From: a virus
Virus record (IMG/VR): IMGVR_UViG_3300020411_003715
Coordinates: 32,001 to 96,000 of that record
Reading direction: 5' to 3' (one strand)
Length of the DNA: 64,000 bases
The translations under genes were made by a program, and so were the position numbers. Below the pieces are notes generated by a model. The model was not told the origin of the DNA and made no database searches. It was given only the letters and a program-made list of their open reading frames with translations. How positions within the stretch are numbered: the stretch's first letter is position 1; each line of letters begins with the position of its first letter. Below are positions 9,158 through 24,409 of this stretch, piece by piece.

Positions 9158-10756
9158 TTACTCCGCCTTCTTCAGGTCGCCCCACCCGCCTGCTTTCTTA
9201 TCAGAAACCACTCGGGCAGTGCGCCTTTTGCTCTTGGAAGGACTCTTCTTTTTACTACTGTCCATCTCCTCGTTGGCTCGTAACGCTCGTCCGCTTGCCC
9301 ACTTCCGGAGAGACTCAATCCTCTTCTCCATCGTTACAGACAGCGGGACCGTTCTAGCTGCGGCAGACTCCATGTCCTCGATAGTCAATTCGCGGCCATT
9401 ATCAAAGGCGGCGTATAGACCATCAACGACAACCTGCTCAATCTCTGCGCCAGTAAAGGACTCCGTTGCTGACACAAGACTTTTGAGATCAAAGTTTTGA
9501 GGCTCTCTCCCCATTCGGTTTAGGTGAATCTTAAACACCTCTTCCCGATCGGAAGCATTTGGGAGGTCAACGAAGAATAGCTCGTCAAACCGACCCTTTC
9601 GGAGCATTTCAGGCGGAAGCGCTGAAACATCGTTTGCGGTAGCAACCACAAAAACCTGGGAAGTCTTTTCTGACATCCAGGAGAGAAAGCTACCAAAAAC
9701 ACGCGCAGACGTACCGCTATCATGTGATCCTTGAGCAGAACCAAAGCCCTTCTCGATCTCATCAATCCAAAGAACGCACGGAGAGATTGCTTCAGCAGTC
9801 TTGATGGCTTTTCGAAAATTCGCTTCCGATTGACCAACGTACTGCCCAAATAGAGCCCCAACATCCATACGTAGAACGGGCATATTCCAAGCAGCGCCGA
9901 TACACTTAGCAGTGAGCGACTTCCCTGTGCCCGGGATTCCTACAATCAAGACCCCCTTTGGGTGAGGTAGTCCGAATTTACGGGCATCTTCACTAAAGGC
10001 TTTTCCTCGCTGACCGAGCCAGCTTTTAAGAGTGACGAGCCCCCCAACGTCTTTCATCTCACGATCTACGTCATGGAATTGCAGCACACCGGACTTGCGT
10101 ATGATGTGCTTTTTCTCTTCCATAACAACTCGTGGGTCGAGGGTCTCACACTTAGCCAGAGATTTGGAGAATACGTTCTCTACCTCTCCGAGCGTAAGAC
10201 CGAGGGCTGCACGACAGCCAACACCCACTAATTGATCCTGCTCTTCTTTTGGGACAGCGTCCCCGAAAAAGTCATTCACAATTGGAGAGGTCCATACGCG
10301 AAGCTCATCGGCGCTTGGTAGATCAAAGTCCACAACAGACATAATCTTCTCAAGGCGTGGTGGGATTTTAAGCTCACTATCAATTATTACAATAGTAATA
10401 CCTGGGTTCATCGAAGACGTAAGGTCACGAAGCTTCCTTTGTACCGGATAGCATGGCCCCTCGTTCAACCAGTAACCGAAGTCCTTCAAAAGAAAAACCG
10501 CTGACTGGTCGTGATCCCCGATTTTATCCAGAATCTCTAGGGGTGTCTCGATGTCAGGAAAGTGATCTTTCCCGCAATAGGCACCCTCTGTAAAAGACCA
10601 AGTCCACAGTGCGGAGTTGGCTTCACTAAGTTTGTTCTTGCCCTCAACGATTCTGGACAAGGCTTGCGCAACCCGGTGTTCTTCGTGACTAACCACGTAA
10701 ACCACCGGGTGCGCTGCCCTGATCAGAACGTCGAGTTCTTCGACGCTTTGGTTCAT
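9158..10756 (-). CDS. Ycf46-type AAA+ ATPase
   Basis: Degenerate N-terminal AAA domain plus [18 protein letters not shown] (Walker A), LWIDEIEKG (Walker B), [21 protein letters not shown]. Confidence 0.9.
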
Positions 10757-11667
10757 TACTCTCCTACTCGAATGCGACGCTTGCGCTTCACAGTCTTCTT
10801 CTTAGAAGTGCTCGCCTCTTCCACTACAGGCTCCTCTTCGGAGTCGATAATGTTGAGAAGCTCTTCGGTTTCAAGCTCACAGAAGTACCATCGAACAACA
10901 CGATCGATAGCATCTCGATACTCTTTGTCGAGTTCTGTGTCCCGGTTGTTCGCGATATACGTACGAATCTCTTCCATCTCCTTCTTGGACCTGTAAGTCT
11001 TCGCCCGCTTCCGCTGCTTAGTCTCAGGAACCTCGTCCTTACCCATTCCGAGAATCTGCTCCAGGATCTCATCCTGTCCCTTCTCGTTCGGGGTGCCGTC
11101 TTGGTTGACAACCTTGGCCAGCTTTTTGGCCTGGGTCATCGTGATACGGCCATGACGAAGCGCCTCAAAGGCTACCGTGCTCAACCCCTTATAGGTTGAA
11201 CAAAGGACACTCACTTGAGGCTGCGAAATATTAAGCATGCTGGCGACCTTTTCCTGTGTGCCTACACGCTCATTAAGTCGATAAACAGCCTCACACTTAT
11301 CAGCAAAGTTCAACGTCTCGCGCTGAAGGTTCTCACTGATGTTTAGTGCGAGTGCGTCCTCAAGGTTACCATCGTGGACACCACAAGAAATGGTATCGAA
11401 AAACCCTCCGGTGTCACCACCACTGTCCAGACGCGTCTGACGTTCGTCAGCAATTGCCTGCATGCGGCGATAGCCCGCAACAAGGACTACCCGCTCCTCA
11501 CCATTAGCGTCAGTTGTGATGTGAACAATAGGAGGGTTCATCAAACCATCAGACACAATAGAGGCCTGAAGGTCTCTTGTGTCACCGATGTCGGACCGGC
11601 TATTCCTAAAGCCGAGCACATTCTTCTCAATCTTCTCAATAGGAAATGTTCGCTGTTCTAGCTGCAT
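10756..11667 (-). CDS. parB: ParB/Spo0J-like protein (ParB-N plus HTH)
   Basis: DLQASI..DGLMNPPIV..LVAGYRRMQA, NISENLQRETL, HTH TQEKVASMLNISQPQVS. Confidence 0.75.
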   Translation of the reverse strand: MQLEQRTFPIEKIEKNVLGFRNSRSDIGDTRDLQASIVSDGLMNPPIVHITTDANGEERVVLVAGYRRMQAIADERQTRLDSGGDTGGFFDTISCGVHDGNLEDALALNISENLQRETLNFADKCEAVYRLNERVGTQEKVASMLNISQPQVSVLCSTYKGLSTVAFEALRHGRITMTQAKKLAKVVNQDGTPNEKGQDEILEQILGMGKDEVPETKQRKRAKTYRSKKEMEEIRTYIANNRDTELDKEYRDAIDRVVRWYFCELETEELLNIIDSEEEPVVEEASTSKKKTVKRKRRIRVGE

Positions 11668-13580: not shown

Positions 13581-13606
13581 TAAAAAGGAGAGGATAACCC
13601 CCTCCT
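13581..13606 (-). terminator. Intrinsic terminator
   Basis: Minus strand AGGAGGGG-GTTAT-CCTCTCCT followed by a T tract; one G.U pair fits the minus orientation. Confidence 0.6.
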
Positions 13607-13646: not shown

Positions 13647-14372
13647 CTACTTAGTAGCCGAGACCTTCTTTTTCTTACGGGACCGACGGACCCGCTGAAA
13701 CCGAAGGCCTGCTTCGGACATGAGCTTGACGTGAGCCCACGGAAGAGCGCTAGTAAGCGCAACCCTCTCACTCTCGTCATCCCATTCCCCCTCGACAACC
13801 TTTGCGTAGCTTGGCTGTACGTGCTTGGCCATGAACTCTTTGATGTCCACGGTAAACCGCAAGCCTCGACTAGCCGCAAAGCTGACAAGGTAAGCAGGGA
13901 CTTGGAGAAGAGCCATGAGGTCCTTGTCCTCATTTGTCATCTCCCCAACGAGGACCTTAAGCCCTGTATCCCTTTCGAGAACAGAGATCATCTCCTCATT
14001 CTTCTCAAGCCCAACGAGCATGATCGCCGAGCTTACAAATGCTCGGATAAACTCTGCTCGGGACTTTGCCTTCTCCTCGACAGAGGGCTTCTTGGTGCCT
14101 CGGCCCCATCCACCTTGGCAGATGAAGTTCATTGCACCGCTTCCGTCGAAGTACCCATTGGTCTCAAGCTGGAAGGCGTACTTACAACGCATTCCACTCT
14201 CCGAGACCGGGTTACCGACATAGGAGACGGAACCATCTCCGTTCTCCCGCTTCAGCAACTCGGTTACCGTTTTGTTGTACGTGATCGTGATCACGTCGGG
14301 AGCACGCTTAGGATCAATAAGGCTTTGCATTGGGAGACCAGACGCCCAACTTTTCTTAGTATCAAAACTCAT
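13647..14372 (-). CDS. Hypothetical protein directly downstream of E1
   Basis: 241 aa, GGAGG SD, basic tail RRSRKKKK. Confidence 0.7.
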   Translation of the reverse strand: MSFDTKKSWASGLPMQSLIDPKRAPDVITITYNKTVTELLKRENGDGSVSYVGNPVSESGMRCKYAFQLETNGYFDGSGAMNFICQGGWGRGTKKPSVEEKAKSRAEFIRAFVSSAIMLVGLEKNEEMISVLERDTGLKVLVGEMTNEDKDLMALLQVPAYLVSFAASRGLRFTVDIKEFMAKHVQPSYAKVVEGEWDDESERVALTSALPWAHVKLMSEAGLRFQRVRRSRKKKKVSATK

Positions 14373-14406: not shown

Positions 14407-15072
14407 TTAAGCGGTCCGGTTCAACCTCCAGTTTGTAAAGTCAATCTCTACAACCTTGAAGTTGATCGGCTCGCAAATAACACTCTTTGCCACGGCAGAG
14501 CAGATAAGCGAAGCCAGCCCGTATGCGCAGAAAATGGTAGCTTTCTCCGTACACGGAAGTGGCATAGCTTCTTCATCACTGAATAAACTTTTCTCATAGT
14601 TTTCGACAGTTTCGCGATCCCCCTTATCTACAAAGAAAACCTGTCCAAAACGCGCAGCCATTCGACCGTCAATAAAGAATCTTGCTGACGGGCTCATGAG
14701 AAATGATTCGAAGATGGCCTTCCTGGAAGACATGCTGTCCACTGCGGACACTACGTAGGTTTCTTCAAACGTGTGACCCTCTTCGACTCTAGCAAATTCA
14801 GCGATAATTTCAGCGCCAGTCCCTTCGGATAAACGCTTAGCTAAGGCTTCAACTTTCTTATACCCAATTTCTGGTATGAAATAGCCTTGGTTGGCTAGGT
14901 TATGGGACTCTACCGTGTCGTCATCAAAGACCTTGATTCTTCGAACACCCATTTTAGTTAGCGTCTCGACGGTGTGGGAGCCGATAGCCCCAGCACCGAC
15001 AACGCCTACAGTGATGTTATTGATTAGGCCATCAGGAATAATCCCTGATTGCCGAGTAGTATCGATCATCAT
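14407..15072 (-). CDS. E1-like (ThiF/MoeB family) Ubl-activating enzyme
   Basis: VGVVGAGAIGS, DDDTVESHNLANQ, KKVEAL, SAVDSMSSRK, FIDGRM, candidate catalytic Cys in PLPCTEKAT; TAATG coupling to the JAB stop. Confidence 0.9.
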   Translation of the reverse strand: MMIDTTRQSGIIPDGLINNITVGVVGAGAIGSHTVETLTKMGVRRIKVFDDDTVESHNLANQGYFIPEIGYKKVEALAKRLSEGTGAEIIAEFARVEEGHTFEETYVVSAVDSMSSRKAIFESFLMSPSARFFIDGRMAARFGQVFFVDKGDRETVENYEKSLFSDEEAMPLPCTEKATIFCAYGLASLICSAVAKSVICEPINFKVVEIDFTNWRLNRTA

Positions 15073-16133
15073 TAGCATACCCCCTTCTTCAAAAGCTCTG
15101 GATCGGTCATGTAGCCAAAGGCACTTTCCTCTTCCTCATCATCAAAACCCTCATCGACATCGAACTCTTCGTCCGATTTATCGTCGGGGTTCCCAACGAG
15201 CGTGTAGTTGTGAACCTCTTCAAGCTCCTGCTCCACCTCCTCGGTAGACAGCTCTTTAGCGCACCACTTTCCGAAAAGCTGAACGGCCTCGTTAGAGTCA
15301 ATATCCCCCCCATCATAAGCGTCTTGGAGGTGTACCAACTCATCCGGGAACTTAATGTCCTGGTCGTCGTAGCGATACTCGTACCCCCGGGTAGTTACCT
15401 CTTCTTCCGGAGCCTCTTCCTCTTCAACATCGCTTTCCCACATCCACCGGTTTCCGTGGAGGACACGGCTTCCGTTTGTTACGATTGGGCGAGAAGACCG
15501 ACTCCAGTCGGAGTACCCTGAGTACCAAGACTTATTCTTACCGGCACGCTTCACGGACGTAAGTGTTTCCACAGTCCGGGCAGACCGTGTCACATATTTT
15601 TCCACCATCTCTTCACCCCACCCATCCGGGAGGATGTTGATCTGGTCGACTGACCATGTGCACCTTTCAAAGGTCTGCCTAAACGGCTTAAACATTTCTA
15701 CACGAACATTAAGCTCGCGCTTCTTGTTAGCGATGATGAAGATACCAACGTCACCGAGAAGCTCGTTACCAGCAATAGTCTCAATCCACTGCTCATCTAC
15801 ACCTGACTGGGATACCCCCATATTCACGTGGCTGTGGAAGTGGACAGCCCTCCGCTTCCCAGGGTTCTCCCAGCCCTCATCCTTCAAGGACATAAGCTGG
15901 TCTGTCAGACCATCTGAGTCCATCTCAGTGTACGTTCCTGTACACGATTGAGAGGAGGGTCTGAACTCTGAGATATAGAAGTCCTCCTTAACGCCTGCCT
16001 TTTTCTTGTCTTCGTTGGTAGCCAAAAACCCCATTGCACTAATTTCGATGTCGCACGCATCTACTAAGGCAAACATTTGCTGATACGCACGAGTAGTAAA
16101 CCTAACTGTTGGTTTCGTCGTTGTTTTGGACAT
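15072..16133 (-). CDS. JAB/MPN (JAMM) isopeptidase with acidic C-terminal tail
   Basis: Upstream Glu in CDIEISAMG; HSH-x7-S-x2-D motif (HSHVNMGVSQSGVD). Confidence 0.85.
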   Translation of the reverse strand: MSKTTTKPTVRFTTRAYQQMFALVDACDIEISAMGFLATNEDKKKAGVKEDFYISEFRPSSQSCTGTYTEMDSDGLTDQLMSLKDEGWENPGKRRAVHFHSHVNMGVSQSGVDEQWIETIAGNELLGDVGIFIIANKKRELNVRVEMFKPFRQTFERCTWSVDQINILPDGWGEEMVEKYVTRSARTVETLTSVKRAGKNKSWYSGYSDWSRSSRPIVTNGSRVLHGNRWMWESDVEEEEAPEEEVTTRGYEYRYDDQDIKFPDELVHLQDAYDGGDIDSNEAVQLFGKWCAKELSTEEVEQELEEVHNYTLVGNPDDKSDEEFDVDEGFDDEEEESAFGYMTDPELLKKGVC

Positions 16134-17208
16134 TTGCTTCTTCTCCGTAAGTTTGGATTGTCTTTAATGCCTCTTCGGCCATACTTATAAACGGGACCAC
16201 CTCTGCCAGAACACACTGCCCATTCTTAGAGGAAGGGTGACTATTTCGGTGGTAGAGCATGCATTCTGAGTGCGTTAGTCCACACGCAGCCTTTTGCTGC
16301 TCTTCCGATTCCTTCGCACACTCCGGACAATTGAGCTTGAATTCGCTACTATGTCTTGGGCAGCTATGGTGATCCCATAGATTCTGGACACCCAAGTCCC
16401 TAAGCTTAATATAGGGGTCTGCGGGGTTATACGTACGAAGATATTCAGTCATTGTATAAATGACGTTTGCCACATCATAGGATCCCATATGCTCGATGAG
16501 CATACGCTCAACGTTTCCAAGACAGGGGTTACCCTCTGATTGAACGTGTGGATGGGCATACCCACGCACGCTAATATTATCCTCAAAAGGGATAACTTTG
16601 GCCTGGACTCTTCGATATCCGCCCGAGTAGTAAAACAAGACCGACACCTCGAACCTACCGAAAGAGTTAGGGAAGGACTCGGGCTTGAAACGCCTCTTTA
16701 TGTAGATGTCGTTAGTGAACCACTTTAGCGTAGTTCTTTTCTCCGCCTCATCATGACTAAACACAACAGGCTTTGTCCTATCTACATACTCCATAACGGA
16801 GCTGAGCATGAATGCCCTATTTTCTATTGATTGCTCAGTATAAAGCTCTTCGTGACGATTCCCGTAGGCCGCACTTTCATTAAGTTCTCTTTGAAGCTCG
16901 TCGCGAGTTGTTTTTACCTTGTAGAGAACATCTTGGTTGTTCATCAACTTACGTCTAGCGTCTGCCCAAGATTTCTTTCTCTTCTCAAGTCTTGCCCTGG
17001 CCAGATCAACAGACTTAGCTGTTTCCTCTAGAACTCTTGAGCGCTTGTTGAACTTTTCCTCTGCTGCTGAAATCTTGCTTGATAACTTTTTGATCTCTGA
17101 CTCAAGGGCTTGAATCTGTGCCTGATTTCTCTCACCAGAGGTCGCAACTATATTAGAAAGTAATTCTTTAATTTCCTGATCGCCCCGAAGCTCGATTGCG
17201 ATATCCAT
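16102..17208 (-). CDS. Coiled-coil, prokaryotic E2 (UBC-fold), Cys/His-cluster protein
   Basis: Start MDIAIEL at 17208 (AGGAGG SD); HPHVQSEGNPCLGN matches the E2 HPN..G.xCL active-site pattern (Cys codon 16522-16524); C-terminal CPRH..CPEC..C..H..C. Confidence 0.75.
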   Translation of the reverse strand: MDIAIELRGDQEIKELLSNIVATSGERNQAQIQALESEIKKLSSKISAAEEKFNKRSRVLEETAKSVDLARARLEKRKKSWADARRKLMNNQDVLYKVKTTRDELQRELNESAAYGNRHEELYTEQSIENRAFMLSSVMEYVDRTKPVVFSHDEAEKRTTLKWFTNDIYIKRRFKPESFPNSFGRFEVSVLFYYSGGYRRVQAKVIPFEDNISVRGYAHPHVQSEGNPCLGNVERMLIEHMGSYDVANVIYTMTEYLRTYNPADPYIKLRDLGVQNLWDHHSCPRHSSEFKLNCPECAKESEEQQKAACGLTHSECMLYHRNSHPSSKNGQCVLAEVVPFISMAEEALKTIQTYGEEANVQNNDETNS

Positions 17209-17224
17209 GCTTCCTCCTGGTAAC

Positions 17225-17257
17225 AAAAAAGGGGCGAAGTCAAAAAGACTCCGCCCC
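17225..17257 (-). terminator. Intrinsic terminator between Ubl and E2 genes
   Basis: Minus strand GGGGCGGAGTC-TTTTT-GACTTCGCCCC-TTTTTT; 11-bp stem with G.U only in the minus orientation. Confidence 0.8.
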
Positions 17258-17285
17258 TCTTAGTGGGTCTATGTTTGCTGTGTAT

Positions 17286-17738
17286 TTAGCAGGCGTTGCC
17301 GCCGGCCACTTTGCCCGAGATGAAGATCTCATGCTCACCACTACCAAGCTTTTCGTTGATATTGGTGATCTCTACCGTCTGACCTGGGCCGACGCGCTTC
17401 TTAAAGGTAAAACCATCAACAGCCCAATCAAGGGTTACCATCAGGTCTGCCAATGATGTGTCAGCAGGAACCTGGACGCACCGGTCACTCTTACCGCTTC
17501 GGATGAGAGAGACCACAGCGTTAGTATCGCTGTCTACAGGCGTAGCGACCTGGACGTTCAACTTAGCGGCTTCGGCAGCCTCGATTGCCGCCTTGCTGTC
17601 TGACACCATCTTCTGGAGCGCGGAAAGGCGATCCATATCCTGCTGGCAGAAATCATCGGCCATGGACTTAAGGTGGTCATCTCGCTGAGTAACAGCCTGT
17701 GCAAGCTCTTCTTTGAGTCGTGCTAGATTATCCGACAT
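17286..17738 (-). CDS. Ubiquitin-like protein (N-terminal coiled coil plus beta-grasp) ending in GG-NAC
   Basis: Start MSDNL at 17738 (AGGAG SD); C-terminal ~75 aa alternate beta/alpha segments; ends EIFISGKVAGG-NAC*; first gene of the E2-JAB-E1 run. Confidence 0.75.
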   Translation of the reverse strand: MSDNLARLKEELAQAVTQRDDHLKSMADDFCQQDMDRLSALQKMVSDSKAAIEAAEAAKLNVQVATPVDSDTNAVVSLIRSGKSDRCVQVPADTSLADLMVTLDWAVDGFTFKKRVGPGQTVEITNINEKLGSGEHEIFISGKVAGGNAC

Positions 17739-18087
17739 TAACATTCTCCTCTTCTTCCCAGGAATATCCCGGAAAGGTTTCTTCAATCTTTTTCGTTAGT
17801 TCTTCTAGATTTCCTCCCGACCACCAGATTACCGATTTCTGGTCGAAGTCAACGCGCATAGCTCCGCCTTTTGATAGGTCGGGCTCTTCGCTAGCGTTCT
17901 TGTTTTCTGTTGTGGCAGAGGCTGAGAATTCTAGGCATTTAACGCCCCCTGCTACATTTGGTGCTGGACCAAAGTAGGCGGTGACGTACCATCCTTTGAA
18001 TTTTCTATTCTTTACTATCTTTTGTTTGCCGAGGACGGCGAACTGTTCTTCCATCTGATTGAGGTAATCAGAGCTTTGCTTATCCAT
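17728..18087 (-). CDS. Hypothetical protein upstream of Ubl
   Basis: 119 aa; overlaps the Ubl start region. Confidence 0.65.
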   Translation of the reverse strand: MDKQSSDYLNQMEEQFAVLGKQKIVKNRKFKGWYVTAYFGPAPNVAGGVKCLEFSASATTENKNASEEPDLSKGGAMRVDFDQKSVIWWSGGNLEELTKKIEETFPGYSWEEEENVNVG

Positions 18088-19289: not shown

Positions 19290-19574
19290 TTAGTCTAGCA
19301 CGCGAAGCCCCTCGTTACTTGAGTAAGCATTCGCGAAATCCACAATGCTTGTCCCCACAGCATCACTGTAGTAGCTGCCATCTAGAGTGCATAGGTGCCT
19401 GTGGATAATCCTCGCTGCTTCGATTAATTCAAGGCTTTTTGGGTCGTAGGTTCTGGTAAAGAACCCGTGATCTTCTAGAGTATTAAAGAACGCCTTTGCC
19501 CGCTCCCTCTTTCCGTCTGGCAGATCCCCCAGGTGACCGTAGACCTCAAAGTCTCTTTCTACACTTTCACTCAT
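19290..19574 (-). CDS. Hypothetical protein
   Basis: 94-aa ORF coupled to the upstream gene. Confidence 0.6.
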   Translation of the reverse strand: MSESVERDFEVYGHLGDLPDGKRERAKAFFNTLEDHGFFTRTYDPKSLELIEAARIIHRHLCTLDGSYYSDAVGTSIVDFANAYSSNEGLRVLD

Positions 19575-20298
19575 TTTCTTTCTCCCATTCGCGCTCAGCT
19601 TCTTTTAACATTTCCAGGTCATCCTCGCAGAACGCGTATACAAGCCTCCCCGTAGAGGTCTCGTCATCAGGGGCCCCGTCTGATCCCCGAACAAGCTCCC
19701 CATTTATATATTCTTTAAATCCCGCAAAGAACATCCCTAGCTCAGAGTACTCAAGGGTGAACACTAGGTCTGGGTAGAGCAGCGACGTTTCAGCAACCCA
19801 ACCCTCTGGAGGACTCCATGCCGTTTCAAACGAAAACTCCCAGTAGGTATCTTCATCCATTCGGGCCGCTGGGAGGTAGTCATTATGTAGGTCATCTACA
19901 GACACGTCCCACTTAGTTCCCCAGTTTTCAACACACCAACTGTACCAAGTCAGATGGCCATGGGTGTCCATATTGTGTTTGTATTGATCCGCCTTTTCTT
20001 TGGAAAAGCCGCGACCCTCTTTGGAGAAGTAGTCGATCAACTTCTCTCTGCAGTCTGGGTCCTCTTTAGTGATGCCGGAGGCAAGGACGTCCGCCCAGCC
20101 AAAGATGTACGAAGGGATCTCCCCGTAGTATATGTGATACATAAGCTCCTCGCTCCCAGCACTTACGGAGGTAAGCTCTTCCGGGGGAGGGAAGGTTGCG
20201 GAGAATATCTCTCCGTGCTTTTTTATCTTAGAAACAAGAAGGGCCAGCGTCTTTGCTGGCCCTGAGATTTTCACATTGTTTGTGCACCAATTAGGCAT
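19567..20298 (-). CDS. YubB/DUF1281 ferredoxin-like domain protein
   Basis: MPNWCTNNVKISG, WYSWCVENWGTKWD, FETAWSPP, LEYSELGMFFAG. Confidence 0.8.
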   Translation of the reverse strand: MPNWCTNNVKISGPAKTLALLVSKIKKHGEIFSATFPPPEELTSVSAGSEELMYHIYYGEIPSYIFGWADVLASGITKEDPDCREKLIDYFSKEGRGFSKEKADQYKHNMDTHGHLTWYSWCVENWGTKWDVSVDDLHNDYLPAARMDEDTYWEFSFETAWSPPEGWVAETSLLYPDLVFTLEYSELGMFFAGFKEYINGELVRGSDGAPDDETSTGRLVYAFCEDDLEMLKEAEREWEKENE

Positions 20299-21598: not shown

Positions 21599-21675
21599 TG
21601 GCACCCCCTAGTGGACTCGAACCACTGACCCTCGGCTTAGAAGGCCGATGCTCTATCCAGCTGAGCTAAGGGGGC
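21599..21675 (-). tRNA. trnR: tRNA-Arg(TCT), CCA encoded
   Basis: GCCCCCTTAGCTCAGCTGGATAGAGCATCGGCCTTCTAAGCCGAGGGTCAGTGGTTCGAGTCCACTAGGGGGTGCCA cloverleaf. Confidence 0.95.
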
Positions 21676-21681
21676 TAAGTT

Positions 21682-22188
21682 TTATGAAGAGATCGCAGAT
21701 CTCGTTTTTGGGTTAGACAGGTCCAAGAACTTGACTTCGTTACTTAAGATCTTTGGCGTCCAACTTCCGTCAAGCTTCTCACTAAAAAAGCATAATGCAA
21801 CGTCTTTGCCACCTCGGTCCTTAAGCAGGTCAAAGGATCTCAGAAGAGCTGAGTCGTTAGACATGATAACGATTTTTTCGTGACTTGACATCGCCGCCAC
21901 AACTCCAAGCTCAACCGAAAAATTCGGCTTAGTGTTGAAGTCGTAAACGTTTAGCCCAACACCAAGTTCGCCCAGCCTTGTGAGAAACTTTGACTGAGAT
22001 TGGTTTTTGGGGTCAGCAATAGTGAAAGCCTGAATGTCTACTATCGATGTAGACGGATTATCACCGCTCTCAAACAACTCCGAAAAGGCTGTCGTTTTTA
22101 ACCAACCAACCAGCTTTTCGTAGTTTACGGTGATGTTCAGACCCCTTATCGCAAAATATAAAGAGCTGAGGTCGATACATACCAACAT
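21682..22188 (-). CDS. NYN/LabA (PIN-like) domain protein, apparently degenerate
   Basis: LVCIDLSSLY..NYEKL, KIVIMSNDSAL..LKDRGGKDV follow the NYN layout, but several acidic residues are replaced. Confidence 0.6.
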   Translation of the reverse strand: MLVCIDLSSLYFAIRGLNITVNYEKLVGWLKTTAFSELFESGDNPSTSIVDIQAFTIADPKNQSQSKFLTRLGELGVGLNVYDFNTKPNFSVELGVVAAMSSHEKIVIMSNDSALLRSFDLLKDRGGKDVALCFFSEKLDGSWTPKILSNEVKFLDLSNPKTRSAISS

Positions 22189-22229
22189 TAGTTTTTCCTC
22201 CTAGTACGATCAATAAAATTAATAATTTG

Positions 22230-22302
22230 TGAGCCGGGTGGGGTTCGAACCCACGACTTACGGATTAAAAGTCCGCTACTCTGCCAACTGAGTTACCGGC
22301 CC
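22230..22302 (-). tRNA. trnK: tRNA-Lys(TTT), CCA not encoded
   Basis: GGGCCGGTAACTCAGTTGGCAGAGTAGCGGACTTTTAATCCGTAAGTCGTGGGTTCGAACCCCACCCGGCTCA followed by CAA. Confidence 0.95.
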
Positions 22303-22340
22303 GATAGCGAATGGGGAGCAACAGGCCCCCCCATACGCTT

Positions 22341-22610
22341 TTACCCCGTTGTGAAGTTTATAGCTAGTTGTTGCTGAGGAGTTAACTCAAGCGTATAGGA
22401 CGAGCCGGAGGAAATGAGAGCATAAAGCTCATCTATTTCGAGGTTCGTATCTACTTGAGTATGGTCGCAAAGCGTTATCCTTCGGGCATTCTCGTAGTCC
22501 CTACTGGCATCCACACAAACAACAAAACTCGTTTCTATCAGAATGCTTTCTACGATTGGCTCATTAGCCAACCCCTTTTCGCCTACTATGGCGGGTATCT
22601 TTATCAGCAT
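22341..22610 (-). CDS. Hypothetical protein
   Basis: 89-aa ORF with GAGGAGG SD. Confidence 0.6.
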   Translation of the reverse strand: MLIKIPAIVGEKGLANEPIVESILIETSFVVCVDASRDYENARRITLCDHTQVDTNLEIDELYALISSGSSYTLELTPQQQLAINFTTG

Positions 22611-23183
22611 CTATCCGCCTTCCTCGCTTACGAGTTGGATCACTTTTCCGCCTTCCCCTCTTCCGGCTTCGATCCAACTGTGGATAGCGTTTGCGATTGA
22701 GTTGTACTGGAAACCTCTACCCATCTTCGGCTCGAAGCTTACGTCCAGATCCCGTGCGAGAGCATGGATGACGTCTAGTCCGTAGACAGCCTCCATCTCC
22801 TCAACAACCTTACCGTCTTTCCATATAGATAGTTTTGGATCCCAAGAAGAGATCTCCTCAAAACCCTGCTCGATAAGACTAGAAAAGACACCTTCAATCA
22901 TGTCCTCTATCGAGAAATTATCCAACATCGTCTTCAACGTATCGCCTTCGGCATAGCAGGTTTCTGCATATTCTCGGGCAACACCTTGGGCGACCTCTAG
23001 CGCTCTGTGGTTGCAGGTCTTTTTGCTCTTGTGGATCGACTTTATCTGGTCGACCACCTCTTGGGGCAGACCTACCTCCAAGTAAGTTGACGCCTCGAAC
23101 AGCGTGTGTCCATCACCGACGCCAATGATCTCTTTGATTGTTTTCGTGGGCAGCTTTTTCGCCCAACCCTTTTCGGCAGCCAT
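22611..23183 (-). CDS. Hypothetical protein
   Basis: 190 aa with GAAGGAGG SD. Confidence 0.65.
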   Translation of the reverse strand: MAAEKGWAKKLPTKTIKEIIGVGDGHTLFEASTYLEVGLPQEVVDQIKSIHKSKKTCNHRALEVAQGVAREYAETCYAEGDTLKTMLDNFSIEDMIEGVFSSLIEQGFEEISSWDPKLSIWKDGKVVEEMEAVYGLDVIHALARDLDVSFEPKMGRGFQYNSIANAIHSWIEAGRGEGGKVIQLVSEEGG

Positions 23184-23409
23184 AAGGCCCTCCTTCTGAA
23201 GTTATTTCATAATAATATTTGCCGTACGCGTTATGCCAACAGTACGGACAATGAGGTGTATCCAGCAGAAACACCTGTTTACAGTTCGAACATCTTGTTA
23301 CCAAGCTTATCTCTTTTGCTTGCAGACGTGGTAACCACACTTTGGGCAGGCCCTTATGGGCACCCCACGCTTTAACTTTGTTCGATACTTCTCGCCACAT
23401 TCGGGGCAA
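23113..23409 (-). CDS. Possible zinc-ribbon protein
   Basis: CSNC..CPYC; overlaps the downstream ORF, so extent is uncertain. Confidence 0.4.
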   Translation of the reverse strand: MPRMWREVSNKVKAWGAHKGLPKVWLPRLQAKEISLVTRCSNCKQVFLLDTPHCPYCWHNAYGKYYYEITSEGGPYGCRKGLGEKAAHENNQRDHWRR

Positions 23410-23485
23410 CTGATCGACACCACTTTTTTAGCCATAAGTTGGCGTAACCCTCCATAACCGAAATAAAAAATGAGACATCTGTTTA

Positions 23486-23718
23486 GCTACTCTCTACGAC
23501 CGTCGAACAGATTTACTGGACAGCGGCGCTCCCCCATGCCTCCCTGCGGGTGCTCACGGAAAGAGGTAGTGCTGGTGGATTTTCCCAAATGCCGCCACCG
23601 AACAGCTTTTGGGGCTGCCCCGAAAGGGGTCGCGATAGCGGGGCGCGAGCACTATGTCTTTCCGGAATCTGGTAGATCATAGGGAGAGTATACGTCAGTA
23701 AATCAATCTTGTGGTAGC
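23486..23718 (+). ncRNA. Candidate structured ncRNA (6S-like architecture, unassigned)
   Basis: Nested stems: GATTTACTG/CAGTAAATC, CTCCCT/AGGGAG, CGGAAAGA/TCTTTCCG, GTAGTGCT/AGCACTAT; inner hairpins include CCCC-GAAA-GGGG. Confidence 0.6.
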
Positions 23719-23784
23719 AGTTAATATACGCGCTTAAAATTATTCCCCCAGAGCCCTTAAAAGGGGTGGGGGAATTGATTGTAT

Positions 23785-23861
23785 TGGTGGACCCTCTCGG
23801 ACTTGAACCGAGGACCTACCGGTTATGAGCCGGGGGCTCTGACCAACTGAGCTAAGGGTCC
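23785..23861 (-). tRNA. trnI: tRNA-Ile2(CAT, lysidine type), CCA encoded
   Basis: GGACCCTTAGCTCAGTTGGTCAGAGCCCCCGGCTCATAACCGGTAGG...GGGTCCACCA; G1-C72 pair and GGACCCT-TAGCTCAG 5' end resemble Ile2, not initiator Met. Confidence 0.8.
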
Positions 23862-23871
23862 GATAAGTGGG

Positions 23872-24279
23872 TTATATGAAATCCAATCCTGATTTGTAGA
23901 ACCTCAGGATGGAAATGTTTGGGGCGTAGGGTCCGCCCCTAAGGCGGTGGTCCTTAAACTTGAAGCGCTGCCAGCGTGCGTATCGGTCACCCAAACGGTT
24001 TGCTCTGGCGTCCAGAATGTCTGAGGACACCTTAATGGCGTGCCTTGATTCCAAGTAGGCAACAATCGCTTCCTGGTGCTCCCTAAGCGCTTGCATACAG
24101 ACTCTGCTTACGATTCCCTGGGCAGAATAGTAAAGATCGGAAAGCTCCGATTCTTCTGGCATGTAGTTCCCGTCGAACTCCAGAACAATGTCTTTGTTAA
24201 CGCTGACCTCTAGCTTCACAGGCATAGCGGTGTCTTCGCTGCACCCAATCTGATTCTCCAGACTCAGTTCTTCTTTCAT
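23872..24279 (-). CDS. Hypothetical protein
   Basis: 135-aa ORF between tRNA genes. Confidence 0.55.
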   Translation of the reverse strand: MKEELSLENQIGCSEDTAMPVKLEVSVNKDIVLEFDGNYMPEESELSDLYYSAQGIVSRVCMQALREHQEAIVAYLESRHAIKVSSDILDARANRLGDRYARWQRFKFKDHRLRGGPYAPNISILRFYKSGLDFI

Positions 24280-24322
24280 GGTCTTGCCATAAATTCCTCT
24301 CGACAGTTGTCAAGAGAGCAGG

Positions 24323-24409
24323 TGGTGGGGCTGGAGGGACTCGAACCCTCAATCCCAAGTGGGCGACAGATTTTAAGTCTGTTGCGTATACCAGTTCCGC
24401 CACAGCCCC
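24323..24409 (-). tRNA. trnL: tRNA-Leu(TAA), CCA encoded
   Basis: GGGGCTGTGGCGGAACTGGTATACGCAACAGACTTAAAATCTGTCGCCCACTTGGGATTGAGGGTTCGAGTCCCTCCAGCCCCACCA; long variable arm. Confidence 0.95.

What the first reader, a model, noticed from the sequence alone, without database searches (positions are those of the whole stretch)
14407..17738. Complete phage-encoded ubiquitin-like conjugation operon (Ubl-E2-JAB-E1)
Seen: four consecutive minus-strand genes, the last three overlapping or translationally coupled. They encode a protein ending KVAGG-NAC, an E2-fold protein with HPHV..GNPCLGN, a JAMM protease (E..HSH-x7-S-x2-D) and a ThiF-type E1 with a PLPC Cys. Established: bacterial E1-E2-JAB-Ubl operons (Bil, Bub, PRTRC/Prok-E2 classes) perform protein conjugation, and Bil ubiquitin-tags phage tail proteins as an antiphage defence. 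Inference: here the machinery sits on a large lytic phage, between virion and replication genes. It could tag host proteins, sabotage co-infecting phages, counter host Bil-type defence (via the JAB), or regulate the phage's own proteins. No sulfur-transfer genes (thiG, moaE, rhodanese) are nearby.
Basis: partly seen in the sequence, partly recalled or inferred. Interest (0 to 1): 0.92.

Follow-up and report, generated by a model that had tools for sequence, protein, structure and literature searches.

The report
Phage-encoded ubiquitin-like protein tagging kit
An uncultured 180-kb marine phage carries its own ubiquitin-style tagging set (tag, activating enzyme, transfer enzyme, trimming protease), a kit studied so far only as a bacterial anti-phage defence, and the same enzyme trio sits in hundreds of other uncultured phage genomes.

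Summary

- **Ubl (17286-17738):** its C-terminal half models as a beta-grasp. All 15 family members end V(A/S)GG plus 1-3 variable residues.
- **E2 (16102-17208):** it models as a UBC fold, and the Cys of its HPH..C.G motif is invariant in 93 homologues. A core-only profile aligns that motif onto the HPH and catalytic Cys of UBE2W.
- **JAB (15072-16133):** it has an invariant E..HSH-x7-S-x2-D motif, and its profile matches Rpn11.
- **E1 (14407-15078):** it is a 223-aa ThiF-type adenylation domain with an invariant Cys176.

The complete 180-kb genome has no detectable sulfur-transfer partners.

The E2-JAB-E1 trio is syntenic in the 153 loci fetched from IMG/VR and from MAG or prophage contigs. 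A JAB-E1 pair also occurs in cultured crAss001.

It is not a member of Bil, Bub, PRTRC or Cap2/Cap3. I read it as a viral variant of prokaryotic ubiquitin-like conjugation, with the target unknown. I found no paper describing it.

This scan has already flagged similar phage cassettes on other DNA (e1-2147654, e1-5357637, e1-5320390, e1-879325 among others).

The parts
17728..18087 (-). orf119, a conserved unknown gene whose end overlaps the Ubl start by 11 nt; possibly part of the unit
   Evidence: ORF. Conserved at the same position in L001-L007. No family or atlas lead.
17286..17738 (-). Ubl precursor, 150 aa: N-terminal helical hairpin, then a C-terminal beta-grasp ending VAGG followed by NAC
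   Evidence: All 15 homologues end V[AS]GG plus 1-3 variable residues. AF2 residues 73-146 have pLDDT 82-89. Foldseek and VIA matches are Ubl, UBX, SUMO, MoaD, ThiS and the Bil Ubl 8tyx.
17225..17261 (-). Intrinsic-terminator-like hairpin plus U6 between Ubl and E2; candidate attenuator setting the tag-to-enzyme ratio
   Evidence: 15-bp stem, dG -26.8 kcal/mol, z -5.2. Non-homologous GC hairpins with U-tracts sit at the same place in L001, L002 and L003.
16102..17208 (-). E2: N-terminal coiled coil (about residues 17-136), UBC-fold core with HPH225-227 and Cys235, and a C-terminal Cys/His-rich probable two-zinc module (C289-C338; ORF numbering from 17226)
   Evidence: Start aligned with P0001. 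297 representative homologues. P, C and G invariant, both H nearly so. UQ_con hit in 15/93 relatives. Fold evidence. Core profile hits UBE2W-type E2s with HPH and Cys aligned. Cys/His conservation. Coiled-coil matches.
15072..16133 (-). JAB/JAMM (MPN+) metallopeptidase with a conserved C-terminal helical extension and acidic tail
   Evidence: E30, H100, S101, H102, S110 and D113 invariant in 27 sequences. Profile matches Rpn11 at 2.3e-7 with the active site aligned. Prok-JAB weak hits in 19/27.
14407..15078 (-). Minimal E1: a single ThiF-type adenylation domain, 223 aa, with invariant Cys176
   Evidence: Pfam ThiF 1.2e-19, above cutoff. PDB sequence matches to Uba1, UBA3, UBA5, MccB and Cap2 at about 1e-7. 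Cys176 is 100% conserved in 56 unique E1s, including crAss001 gp76.
13647..14372 (-). orf241, a conserved unknown gene 34 nt downstream of E1; the last gene before the terminator
   Evidence: Conserved after E1 in L001-L008. No family or atlas lead.
13586..13606 (-). Terminator-like hairpin closing the unit
9158..11667 (-). Context genes kept with the cassette in this phage family: ParB-family protein (10756-11667) and a CDC48/PAN-type AAA+ ATPase (9158-10756)
   Evidence: NCBIfam and Pfam. Synteny in L001-L008. The AAA+ gene is absent or only faintly matched in 5 other cassette-bearing phage genomes.

Best explanation
This is a working-looking, virus-encoded ubiquitin-like conjugation system.

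Proposed cycle (steps 1-4 are inferred from homology, not measured here):

1. The 150-aa pro-Ubl is trimmed by the JAMM protease, which removes the 1-3 residues after the invariant Gly-Gly. This is what BilC does to BilA (10.1101/2023.09.26.559546).
2. The minimal ThiF-type E1, probably a homodimer like UBA5, ThiF or MoeB, adenylates the exposed Gly. It takes the Ubl onto its invariant Cys176.
3. The Ubl passes to Cys235 of the UBC-fold E2. The E2's coiled-coil N-terminus and C-terminal zinc module would provide oligomerisation and built-in substrate choice, since no separate E3 is seen.
4. The Ubl is attached to amino groups of target proteins. The JAMM protease can also reverse this.

Shown here are the folds, the catalytic motifs, their conservation, and the synteny.

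The hairpin after the Ubl gene would make the tag more abundant than the enzymes.

In four independent lineages the cassette sits in replication, partition or nucleotide-metabolism blocks. I therefore expect it to act early, on host or phage proteins tied to takeover or replication, rather than in virion assembly. The target is unknown.
For: - **Each component is what the reading requires.** E1; JAB; E2; Ubl.
- **The Ubl looks like a processed precursor.** The variable tail after an invariant GG is the signature of a processed Ubl precursor (paper 10.1101/2023.09.26.559546).
- **The enzyme genes are coupled.** E2, JAB and E1 overlap one another.
- **The arrangement recurs.** JAB and E1 are adjacent in 150 of the 153 loci fetched with the JAB family, and the other three contigs end before E1 (80 IMG/VR loci; 73 genome-contig loci).
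- **An E2 is usually next door.** The E2 core is detected directly beside JAB in 53/80 and 52/73 of these loci.
- **A small candidate tag recurs.** About 60 distinct loci have a 72-137 aa ORF (mostly 75-80 aa) upstream, ending in G-G, G-A, N-A or S-A.
- **No sulfur-transfer partners.** None detected in the complete 180-kb genome.
- **Replication-module context.** Seen in the window, in crAss001 and in an Allochromatium prophage.
Against: - No biochemistry exists for any member.
- The window's E2, JAB and Ubl are below threshold in every curated library.
- The E2 fold match is moderate (Z below 7, Foldseek E about 0.01). The best sequence match of the core profile to a solved E2 is E = 0.001.
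- The third residue of the E2 motif is His, not the catalytic Asn of most E2s.
- The E1 lacks a separate catalytic-Cys domain and a ubiquitin-fold domain for E2 recruitment, so the E1-to-E2 hand-off is unproven.
- No target and no E3 were identified.
- Timing of expression is inferred from gene neighbourhood only.
Confidence: 0.72

Rival explanations
1. The cassette is an inter-phage weapon. Like bacterial Bil, it would tag a structural protein of co-infecting rival phages (superinfection exclusion), not host or self proteins.
For: [quoted passage not shown] Phages often carry defence systems. The E1 matches PADLOC Cap2-type E1-E2 models over its Rossmann part.
Against: The cassette is a fixed syntenic feature of whole phage lineages, embedded in replication modules. 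It is not a patchy accessory island. It occurs in lytic crAss001. PADLOC models do not match the JAB, E2 or Ubl. The E1 architecture differs from BilD.
Confidence: 0.12
2. The Ubl is a carrier rather than a protein tag. E1 would make an acyl-adenylate or thiocarboxylate for sulfur transfer, or the tag would be joined to a non-protein acceptor such as a lipid, nucleotide or cell-wall precursor. The E2-like protein would then be only a scaffold.
For: The best fold matches of the Ubl include MoaD and ThiS. The E1 is of the minimal ThiF/MoeB size. GenBank annotates the crAss homologue as a thiamine biosynthesis protein. An SLT transglycosylase gene lies just upstream.
Against: No rhodanese, ThiG, MoaE or TtuA-type gene was detected anywhere in the complete genome. 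The PH..C.G core of the E2 motif is invariant or nearly so, and the fold is UBC. A JAMM protease plus a GG-plus-tail precursor points to a conjugation cycle.
Confidence: 0.07
3. Counter-defence only. The important activity would be the JAMM protease stripping host Bil- or CBASS-type conjugates, with E1, E2 and Ubl being accessory or decaying.
For: JAB is the best conserved of the four and was the easiest to trace across phages.
Against: The catalytic residues of E1 and E2 and the Ubl GG are as strictly conserved as the JAMM motif. The enzymes are translationally coupled. The cassette occurs in phages of very different likely hosts, judging from the MAG assignments: Bacteroidota, CPR bacteria and Clostridia.
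Confidence: 0.06

Closest known systems
Bil (BilABCD, types I and II), a bacterial anti-phage ubiquitin-like conjugation system
   Same: It has the same four separate parts: Ubl, E2, JAB and E1. The Ubl has a conserved C-terminal Gly followed by a few non-conserved residues that the JAB removes. Some Ubls have coiled-coil N-terminal domains (10.1101/2023.09.26.559546; PMC11601596).
   Different: The E1 here is a single 223-aa adenylation domain, not the tandem IAD-AAD-CYS architecture. The E2 has a canonical-type HPH..C motif plus a coiled coil and a zinc module. No curated model links the proteins. The carrier is a virus rather than a bacterial defence island.
Bub (formerly 6E / DUF6527) operons
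   Same: Both use a minimal homodimer-type E1 resembling UBA5, a JAMM peptidase that matures the Ubl, and structurally varied Ubls (PMC11601596).
   Different: Bub fuses Ubl to E2 and JAB to E1, uses a catalytic Ser in the E2, has an E1 without a catalytic Cys, and always has the DUF6527 protease. Here the genes are separate, both Cys residues are invariant, and no DUF6527 was seen.
PRTRC (ParB-related, ThiF-related cassette) of plasmids and ICEs
   Same: A ThiF-type E1 with Ubl, E2-like and JAB-like partners lies near a ParB gene on a mobile element. PRTRC_ThiF is the second-best NCBIfam hit of the E1. The make-up of PRTRC is from my own knowledge.
   Different: All scores are far below cutoff: ThiF 61 against 145 bits, ParB 27 against 279 bits. 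None of the six cassette and flanking proteins scanned against NCBIfam hit PRTRC A-F.
Eukaryotic UBE2W-type E2 enzymes
   Same: The core profile aligns the HPH-x5-C motif onto HPHVYSNGHIC of UBE2W and 3we5, which also carry HPH instead of HPN.
   Different: Identity is only about 15%. The phage protein adds a 130-residue coiled coil and a zinc module. Whether it shares UBE2W's N-terminal-amine preference (from my own knowledge) is unknown.
Lambda/T1 tail assembly proteins TAPI (Ubl) and TAPK (JAB-NlpC/P60)
   Same: This is the phage Ubl-plus-JAB pairing known from comparative genomics (PMC1779556).
   Different: TAPI/TAPK have no E1 or E2 and sit in the tail module. The present cassette has the full writer set and sits in the replication block.
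Caldiarchaeum/eukaryote-type Ub-E1-E2-RING-Rpn11 operon
   Same: It is a compact operon with Ub, E1, a UBC E2 and an Rpn11-like JAMM. The Ubl model and the JAB profile both match its solved Ub-Rpn11 entries (6fno/6fnn and 6fjv).
   Different: The archaeal system has a separate small RING E3 and a larger E1, and it is cellular.

Membership tests
UBC-fold E2 superfamily | UBC alpha/beta fold | tested here: met
   The AF2 core has pLDDT about 97. Foldseek top hits are Rad6, UbcH10, UbcH7 and Cap2. VIA Z is 5.6-6.8 over 107-122 residues, and all 50 listed entries are E2s.
UBC-fold E2 superfamily | HPN-type motif followed about 8-10 residues later by the catalytic Cys | tested here: met
   HPH225-227 and Cys235. 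P, C and G are invariant and both H nearly so in 93 sequences. The motif aligns to the HPH..C of UBE2W and 3we5. The third residue is His, not Asn.
UBC-fold E2 superfamily | Passes Pfam UQ_con | tested here: not met
   The window protein has no hit. 15 of 93 relatives have hits, the best at E 6e-6.
JAMM/MPN+ metallopeptidases | E-x(n)-H-S/T-H-x7-S-x2-D zinc site | tested here: met
   The motif is invariant in 27 sequences and aligns to the Rpn11 active site at E 2.3e-7. The window protein itself is below the Prok-JAB reporting level.
E1 / ThiF adenylation superfamily | ThiF Rossmann adenylation domain above the Pfam cutoff, with a conserved Cys after it | tested here: met
   70.9 bits against a 28.1 cutoff. 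Cys176 is invariant in 56 E1s. Solved E1 structures match by sequence.
Beta-grasp ubiquitin-like modifiers | Beta-grasp fold ending in an exposed or processable Gly-Gly | tested here: met
Bil (BilABCD) | [quoted passage not shown] | tested here: not met
   The E1 is 223 aa with one ThiF domain spanning residues 19-195. The feature is as defined in PMC11601596.
Bil (BilABCD) | Recognised by defence-system models | tested here: inconclusive
   PADLOC gives no hit for JAB or E2 beyond coiled-coil noise, and one chance-level hit for the Ubl. The E1 matches only Cap2-type E1-E2 models in part. I could not verify which Bil models the library holds.
PRTRC | PRTRC_ThiF, PRTRC_parB and PRTRC A-F models above cutoff | tested here: not met
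   61.3 against 144.75 bits. 27 against 278.6 bits. No A-F hits among the six cassette and flanking proteins.
Bub | Ubl-E2 and JAB-E1 fusions plus the DUF6527 protease | tested here: not met
   The genes are separate. No DUF6527 was found among the neighbours scanned.
Type II CBASS Cap2/Cap3 | E2-E1 fusion acting on a CD-NTase | tested here: not met
   E1 and E2 are separate genes and no CD-NTase was seen among the neighbours scanned.
ThiS/MoaD sulfur-carrier pathways | Partner sulfurtransferase or acceptor enzyme (rhodanese, ThiG, MoaE, TtuA-type) | tested here: not met
   None matched in the complete 180,106-base genome, while the control genomes were positive.

The most novel reading that the evidence does not exclude
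The phage may run a miniature tag-and-unfold pathway. Its own Ubl writers would mark proteins. The Rpn11-like JAMM and the neighbouring CDC48/PAN-type AAA+ ATPase, kept next to ParB in this phage family, would then extract or unfold the marked proteins. That would be a virus-encoded analogue of the ubiquitin-Cdc48/proteasome-lid axis, used to remodel host or replication complexes.
Probability: 0.08. Interest if true: 0.95.

Novelty: new variant of a known kind. Interest (0 to 1): 0.8.

Why it matters
Ubiquitin-like conjugation in prokaryotes has been characterised only as a bacterial weapon against phages. Here the virus owns a full set. The same E2-JAB-E1 core is fixed in hundreds of uncultured phage genomes from oceans and guts.

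Cultured crAss001 carries a related JAB-E1 pair. Its E1 is currently annotated as a thiamine biosynthesis protein.

If the cassette is active, phages post-translationally tag proteins during infection. That would be a new layer of phage-host biology and a new branch in the evolutionary history of E2 enzymes. It is directly testable with recombinant proteins and, for the related pair, in crAss001.

Tried and rejected
- **Curated libraries.** Direct Pfam, NCBIfam, PADLOC and PHROG scans recognised only the E1. The E2, JAB and Ubl were blank or gave coiled-coil noise.
- **E2 word-based search.** It found a single homologue. A single-protein scan of viral contigs found none.
- **GenBank phages.** tblastn of the E2 found nothing, and tblastn of the JAB found one fecal phage.
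- **E2 profile against PDB.** The full-length profile was swamped by coiled-coil proteins. A single-sequence core search gave nothing. A core-only alignment solved this.
- **Small-ORF homology.** hhalign between the window Ubl and the 75-aa upstream ORFs of distant loci was not significant.
- **crAss001.** Comparisons of gp78 and gp79 with the E2 and Ubl profiles were not significant. Only JAB and E1 are securely shared with crAss001.
- **Diversity-generating retroelement idea for the neighbouring RT.** No A-biased template/variable repeat pair was found within the loci, and there were no Rfam hits in the E1-RT gap.
- **Flanking unknowns.** Atlas look-ups for orf241 and orf119 gave no lead.
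- **AAA+ co-occurrence.** No clear homologue in 5 other cassette-bearing genomes; one faint hit only.
- **E2 alignment for genome contigs.** It had no stretch conserved enough to scan with.
- **Literature.** Nine full-text searches found no description of a phage Ubl-E2-JAB-E1 cassette. The only near-mention is a gut phage protein family resembling UBA5 (10.64898/2026.03.05.709809). The library lacks most subscription journals.
Full report
**What the element is.** The window belongs to a complete, 180,106-base uncultured virus record. It encodes a tail sheath, a class of ribonucleotide reductase, an exonuclease and an HNH endonuclease, and four tRNAs. No tyrosine integrase was found. No cultured phage or plasmid is close at the DNA level.

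**The observation.** The four minus-strand ORFs exist as described.
- The JAB start overlaps the E2 stop by 32 nt. The E1 start overlaps the JAB stop by 7 nt.
- The E2 most likely starts at the Met at 17208, where its nearest homologue starts.
- The longer JAB start at 16133 is supported by conservation of the first 20 residues in 17 of its 26 aligned homologues.

**E1.**
- Pfam ThiF scores 70.9 bits against a cutoff of 28.1.
- By sequence, the nearest solved proteins are Uba1, UBA3, UBA5, MccB and Cap2, at E about 1e-7.
- At 223 aa it is a single adenylation domain.
- I aligned 56 distinct E1s taken from related loci, including crAss001 gp76.

**JAB.**
- No curated model reports the window protein.
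- Thirty homologues were found. In a 27-sequence alignment, E30, H100-S-H102, S110 and D113 are invariant.
- The profile of that alignment matches yeast and human Rpn11 at E 2.3e-7 with the HSH..S..D site aligned.
- 19 of 27 members weakly match Prok-JAB.

**Ubl.**
- Fifteen homologues all end V(A/S)GG followed by one to three unrelated residues.
- With this alignment AlphaFold2 gives two N-terminal helices and a C-terminal domain (residues 73-146) at pLDDT 82-89.
- Foldseek returns USP7 Ubl domains, UBX, SUMO, Caldiarchaeum ubiquitin and the bacterial Bil Ubl 8tyx.
- VIA-align gives Z 8.0-8.9 over about 70 residues to MoaD, ThiS, SUMO and ubiquitin.
- An invariant GG with a variable tail is what Chambers et al. 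describe for BilA, whose JAB removes the tail (10.1101/2023.09.26.559546).

**E2.** This was the critical test.
- An exhaustive HMMER search with residues 140-374 found 297 representative proteins at E up to 0.001.
- In 93 of them the Pro, Cys and Gly of HPH..C.G are invariant and both His nearly so.
- 15 of the 93 hit Pfam UQ_con, the best at 6e-6.
- The AlphaFold2 model has pLDDT about 97 over residues 10-140.
- Foldseek's leading matches are E2 enzymes at weak E-values of about 0.01.
- All 50 listed VIA matches are UBC E2s at Z 5.6-6.8 with 107-122 aligned residues.
- A profile built only from the core of 28 diverse members hit ten PDB sequences, nine of them E2s. The best was E 0.001. It aligned HPH-x5-C onto the HPHVYSNGHIC of UBE2W-type enzymes, which is their catalytic Cys.
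- In more distant members the motif relaxes to xPH..C.G.
- The N-terminal 130 residues give only coiled-coil matches.
- After the core, C289, C300, C303, C315, C322, H326 and C338 are conserved in 49-61 of 65 homologues. This suggests a two-zinc module.

**Sulfur-carrier alternative.** No rhodanese, ThiG, MoaE or TtuA-type domain was detected anywhere in the genome, while the control genomes were positive.

**Transcription.**
- A 15-bp GC-rich hairpin with a U6 tract lies between the Ubl and the E2 (dG -26.8 kcal/mol, z -5.2).
- Three related phages have different but equally strong hairpin-plus-U-tract elements at the same place. Two others do not.
- A further terminator-like hairpin follows orf241.
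- The tag may therefore be made in excess of the enzymes.

**Distribution.**
- Scanning IMG/VR with the JAB alignment gave 356 viral contigs. The 80 loci fetched all have JAB, and all but one (L003, whose contig ends there) have E1 beside it. 53 have a detectable E2 core directly beside JAB.
- The same scan of one genome per 185,579 species gave only 73 loci. Nearly all are MAG contigs, and they show the same trio.
- The one isolate hit, in Allochromatium, lies in a prophage replication module.
- About 60 distinct loci have a 72-137 aa ORF (mostly 75-80 aa) upstream of the E2, ending VVKADNA, VKADGG plus two residues, VKADGAR or VKANNA. Homology of these to the window Ubl is not demonstrable.
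- In GenBank phages only the E1 is widely detectable. It occurs in crAss-like, Flavobacterium and Xanthomonas phages, mostly labelled thiamine biosynthesis protein.
- In crAss001, gp77 is a JAB of this family and gp76 is the E1 with the conserved Cys. gp78 carries GYMHSHV..PCTG and gp79 starts with a Ubl-like stretch, but neither is statistically supported.

**Context.**
- In this phage family the order SLT-orf119-Ubl-E2-JAB-E1-orf241-orf358-ParB-AAA+-RecA-like is conserved. A much more distant relative (L008) keeps E2 through AAA+.
- The AAA+ is of the CDC48/PAN/FtsH type (3e-33). It is absent or only faintly matched in five other cassette-bearing genomes.
- In 65 of 80 viral loci and 35 of 73 genome loci, a reverse transcriptase follows the E1. 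The window genome has none.

**Comparison with known systems.**
- The composition equals Bil. However, the E1 architecture, the E2 type and the viral carrier differ.
- Bub, Cap2/Cap3 and PRTRC each fail a defining feature (see the membership test).
- Nine literature searches found no description of such a phage cassette.
- Earlier reports of this scan describe similar cassettes on other DNA.

**Verdict.** I read the cassette as a viral variant of prokaryotic ubiquitin-like conjugation, with the target and biological role unknown.

Noticed in passing
A2 alignment; L001:5968-6999, L007:5926-7035: Most JAB orthologues in related phages end in a Ubl-like tail after an acidic linker (VGGSK, KGGAK, IGGQG, FGGTA, VVGGSE). 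The window's JAB ends KKGVC instead. The tail could be an autoinhibitory product mimic, or itself a substrate of the E1.
   Followed up: no
L009-L080 and L085-L152, e.g. L014:7822-9054, L010:7612-8733: A 370-410 aa reverse transcriptase (RVT_1) follows the E1, usually after a gap of about 290 nt, in 65/80 viral and 35/73 genome loci. No DGR-type repeat pair and no Rfam RNA was found. 39-40 bp direct repeats flank the RT in L010 and L026. The window phage has no RT.
   Followed up: partly
window 9158-10756 (-): A CDC48/PAN/FtsH-type AAA+ ATPase (3e-33) with an unknown 235-residue N-domain lies next to ParB. It is kept with the cassette in this family and in distant L008, but not in other cassette-bearing phages.
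   Followed up: partly
L081 (crAss001 MH675552.1 81394-85804): gp79-gp78-gp77-gp76 of cultured crAss001 mirror the Ubl-E2-JAB-E1 order. gp76 is annotated as a thiamine biosynthesis protein and gp77 as a metalloprotease. Only JAB and E1 are statistically linked to the window family.
   Followed up: partly
window 16522-16554 (-), E2 residues 225-235: The E2 motif is HPH rather than HPN, as in UBE2W-type E2s. From my own knowledge, UBE2W modifies N-terminal amines. Distant members relax the motif to APH or NPH.
   Followed up: partly
L009:4008-4235, L010:4213-4446, L088:4002-4229 and about 60 others: ORFs of 72-137 aa (mostly 75-80 aa) upstream of the E2 end VVKADNA, VKADGG plus two residues, VKADGAR, VKADSAQ or VKANNA. 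The likely tags often end in Asn-Ala or Gly-Ala rather than Gly-Gly.
   Followed up: partly
window 21599-24409 (-); L014:1129-2181; L068:49-4496: tRNA gene clusters lie a few kb upstream of the cassette, on the same strand, in the window and in two unrelated cassette-bearing gut phage loci. L068 also has a sub-threshold RAGATH-36 match.
   Followed up: no
window 19567-20298 (-): A DUF1281 / Api92-like ferredoxin-like domain protein (2.4e-11) is conserved upstream of the cassette in this phage family.
   Followed up: no
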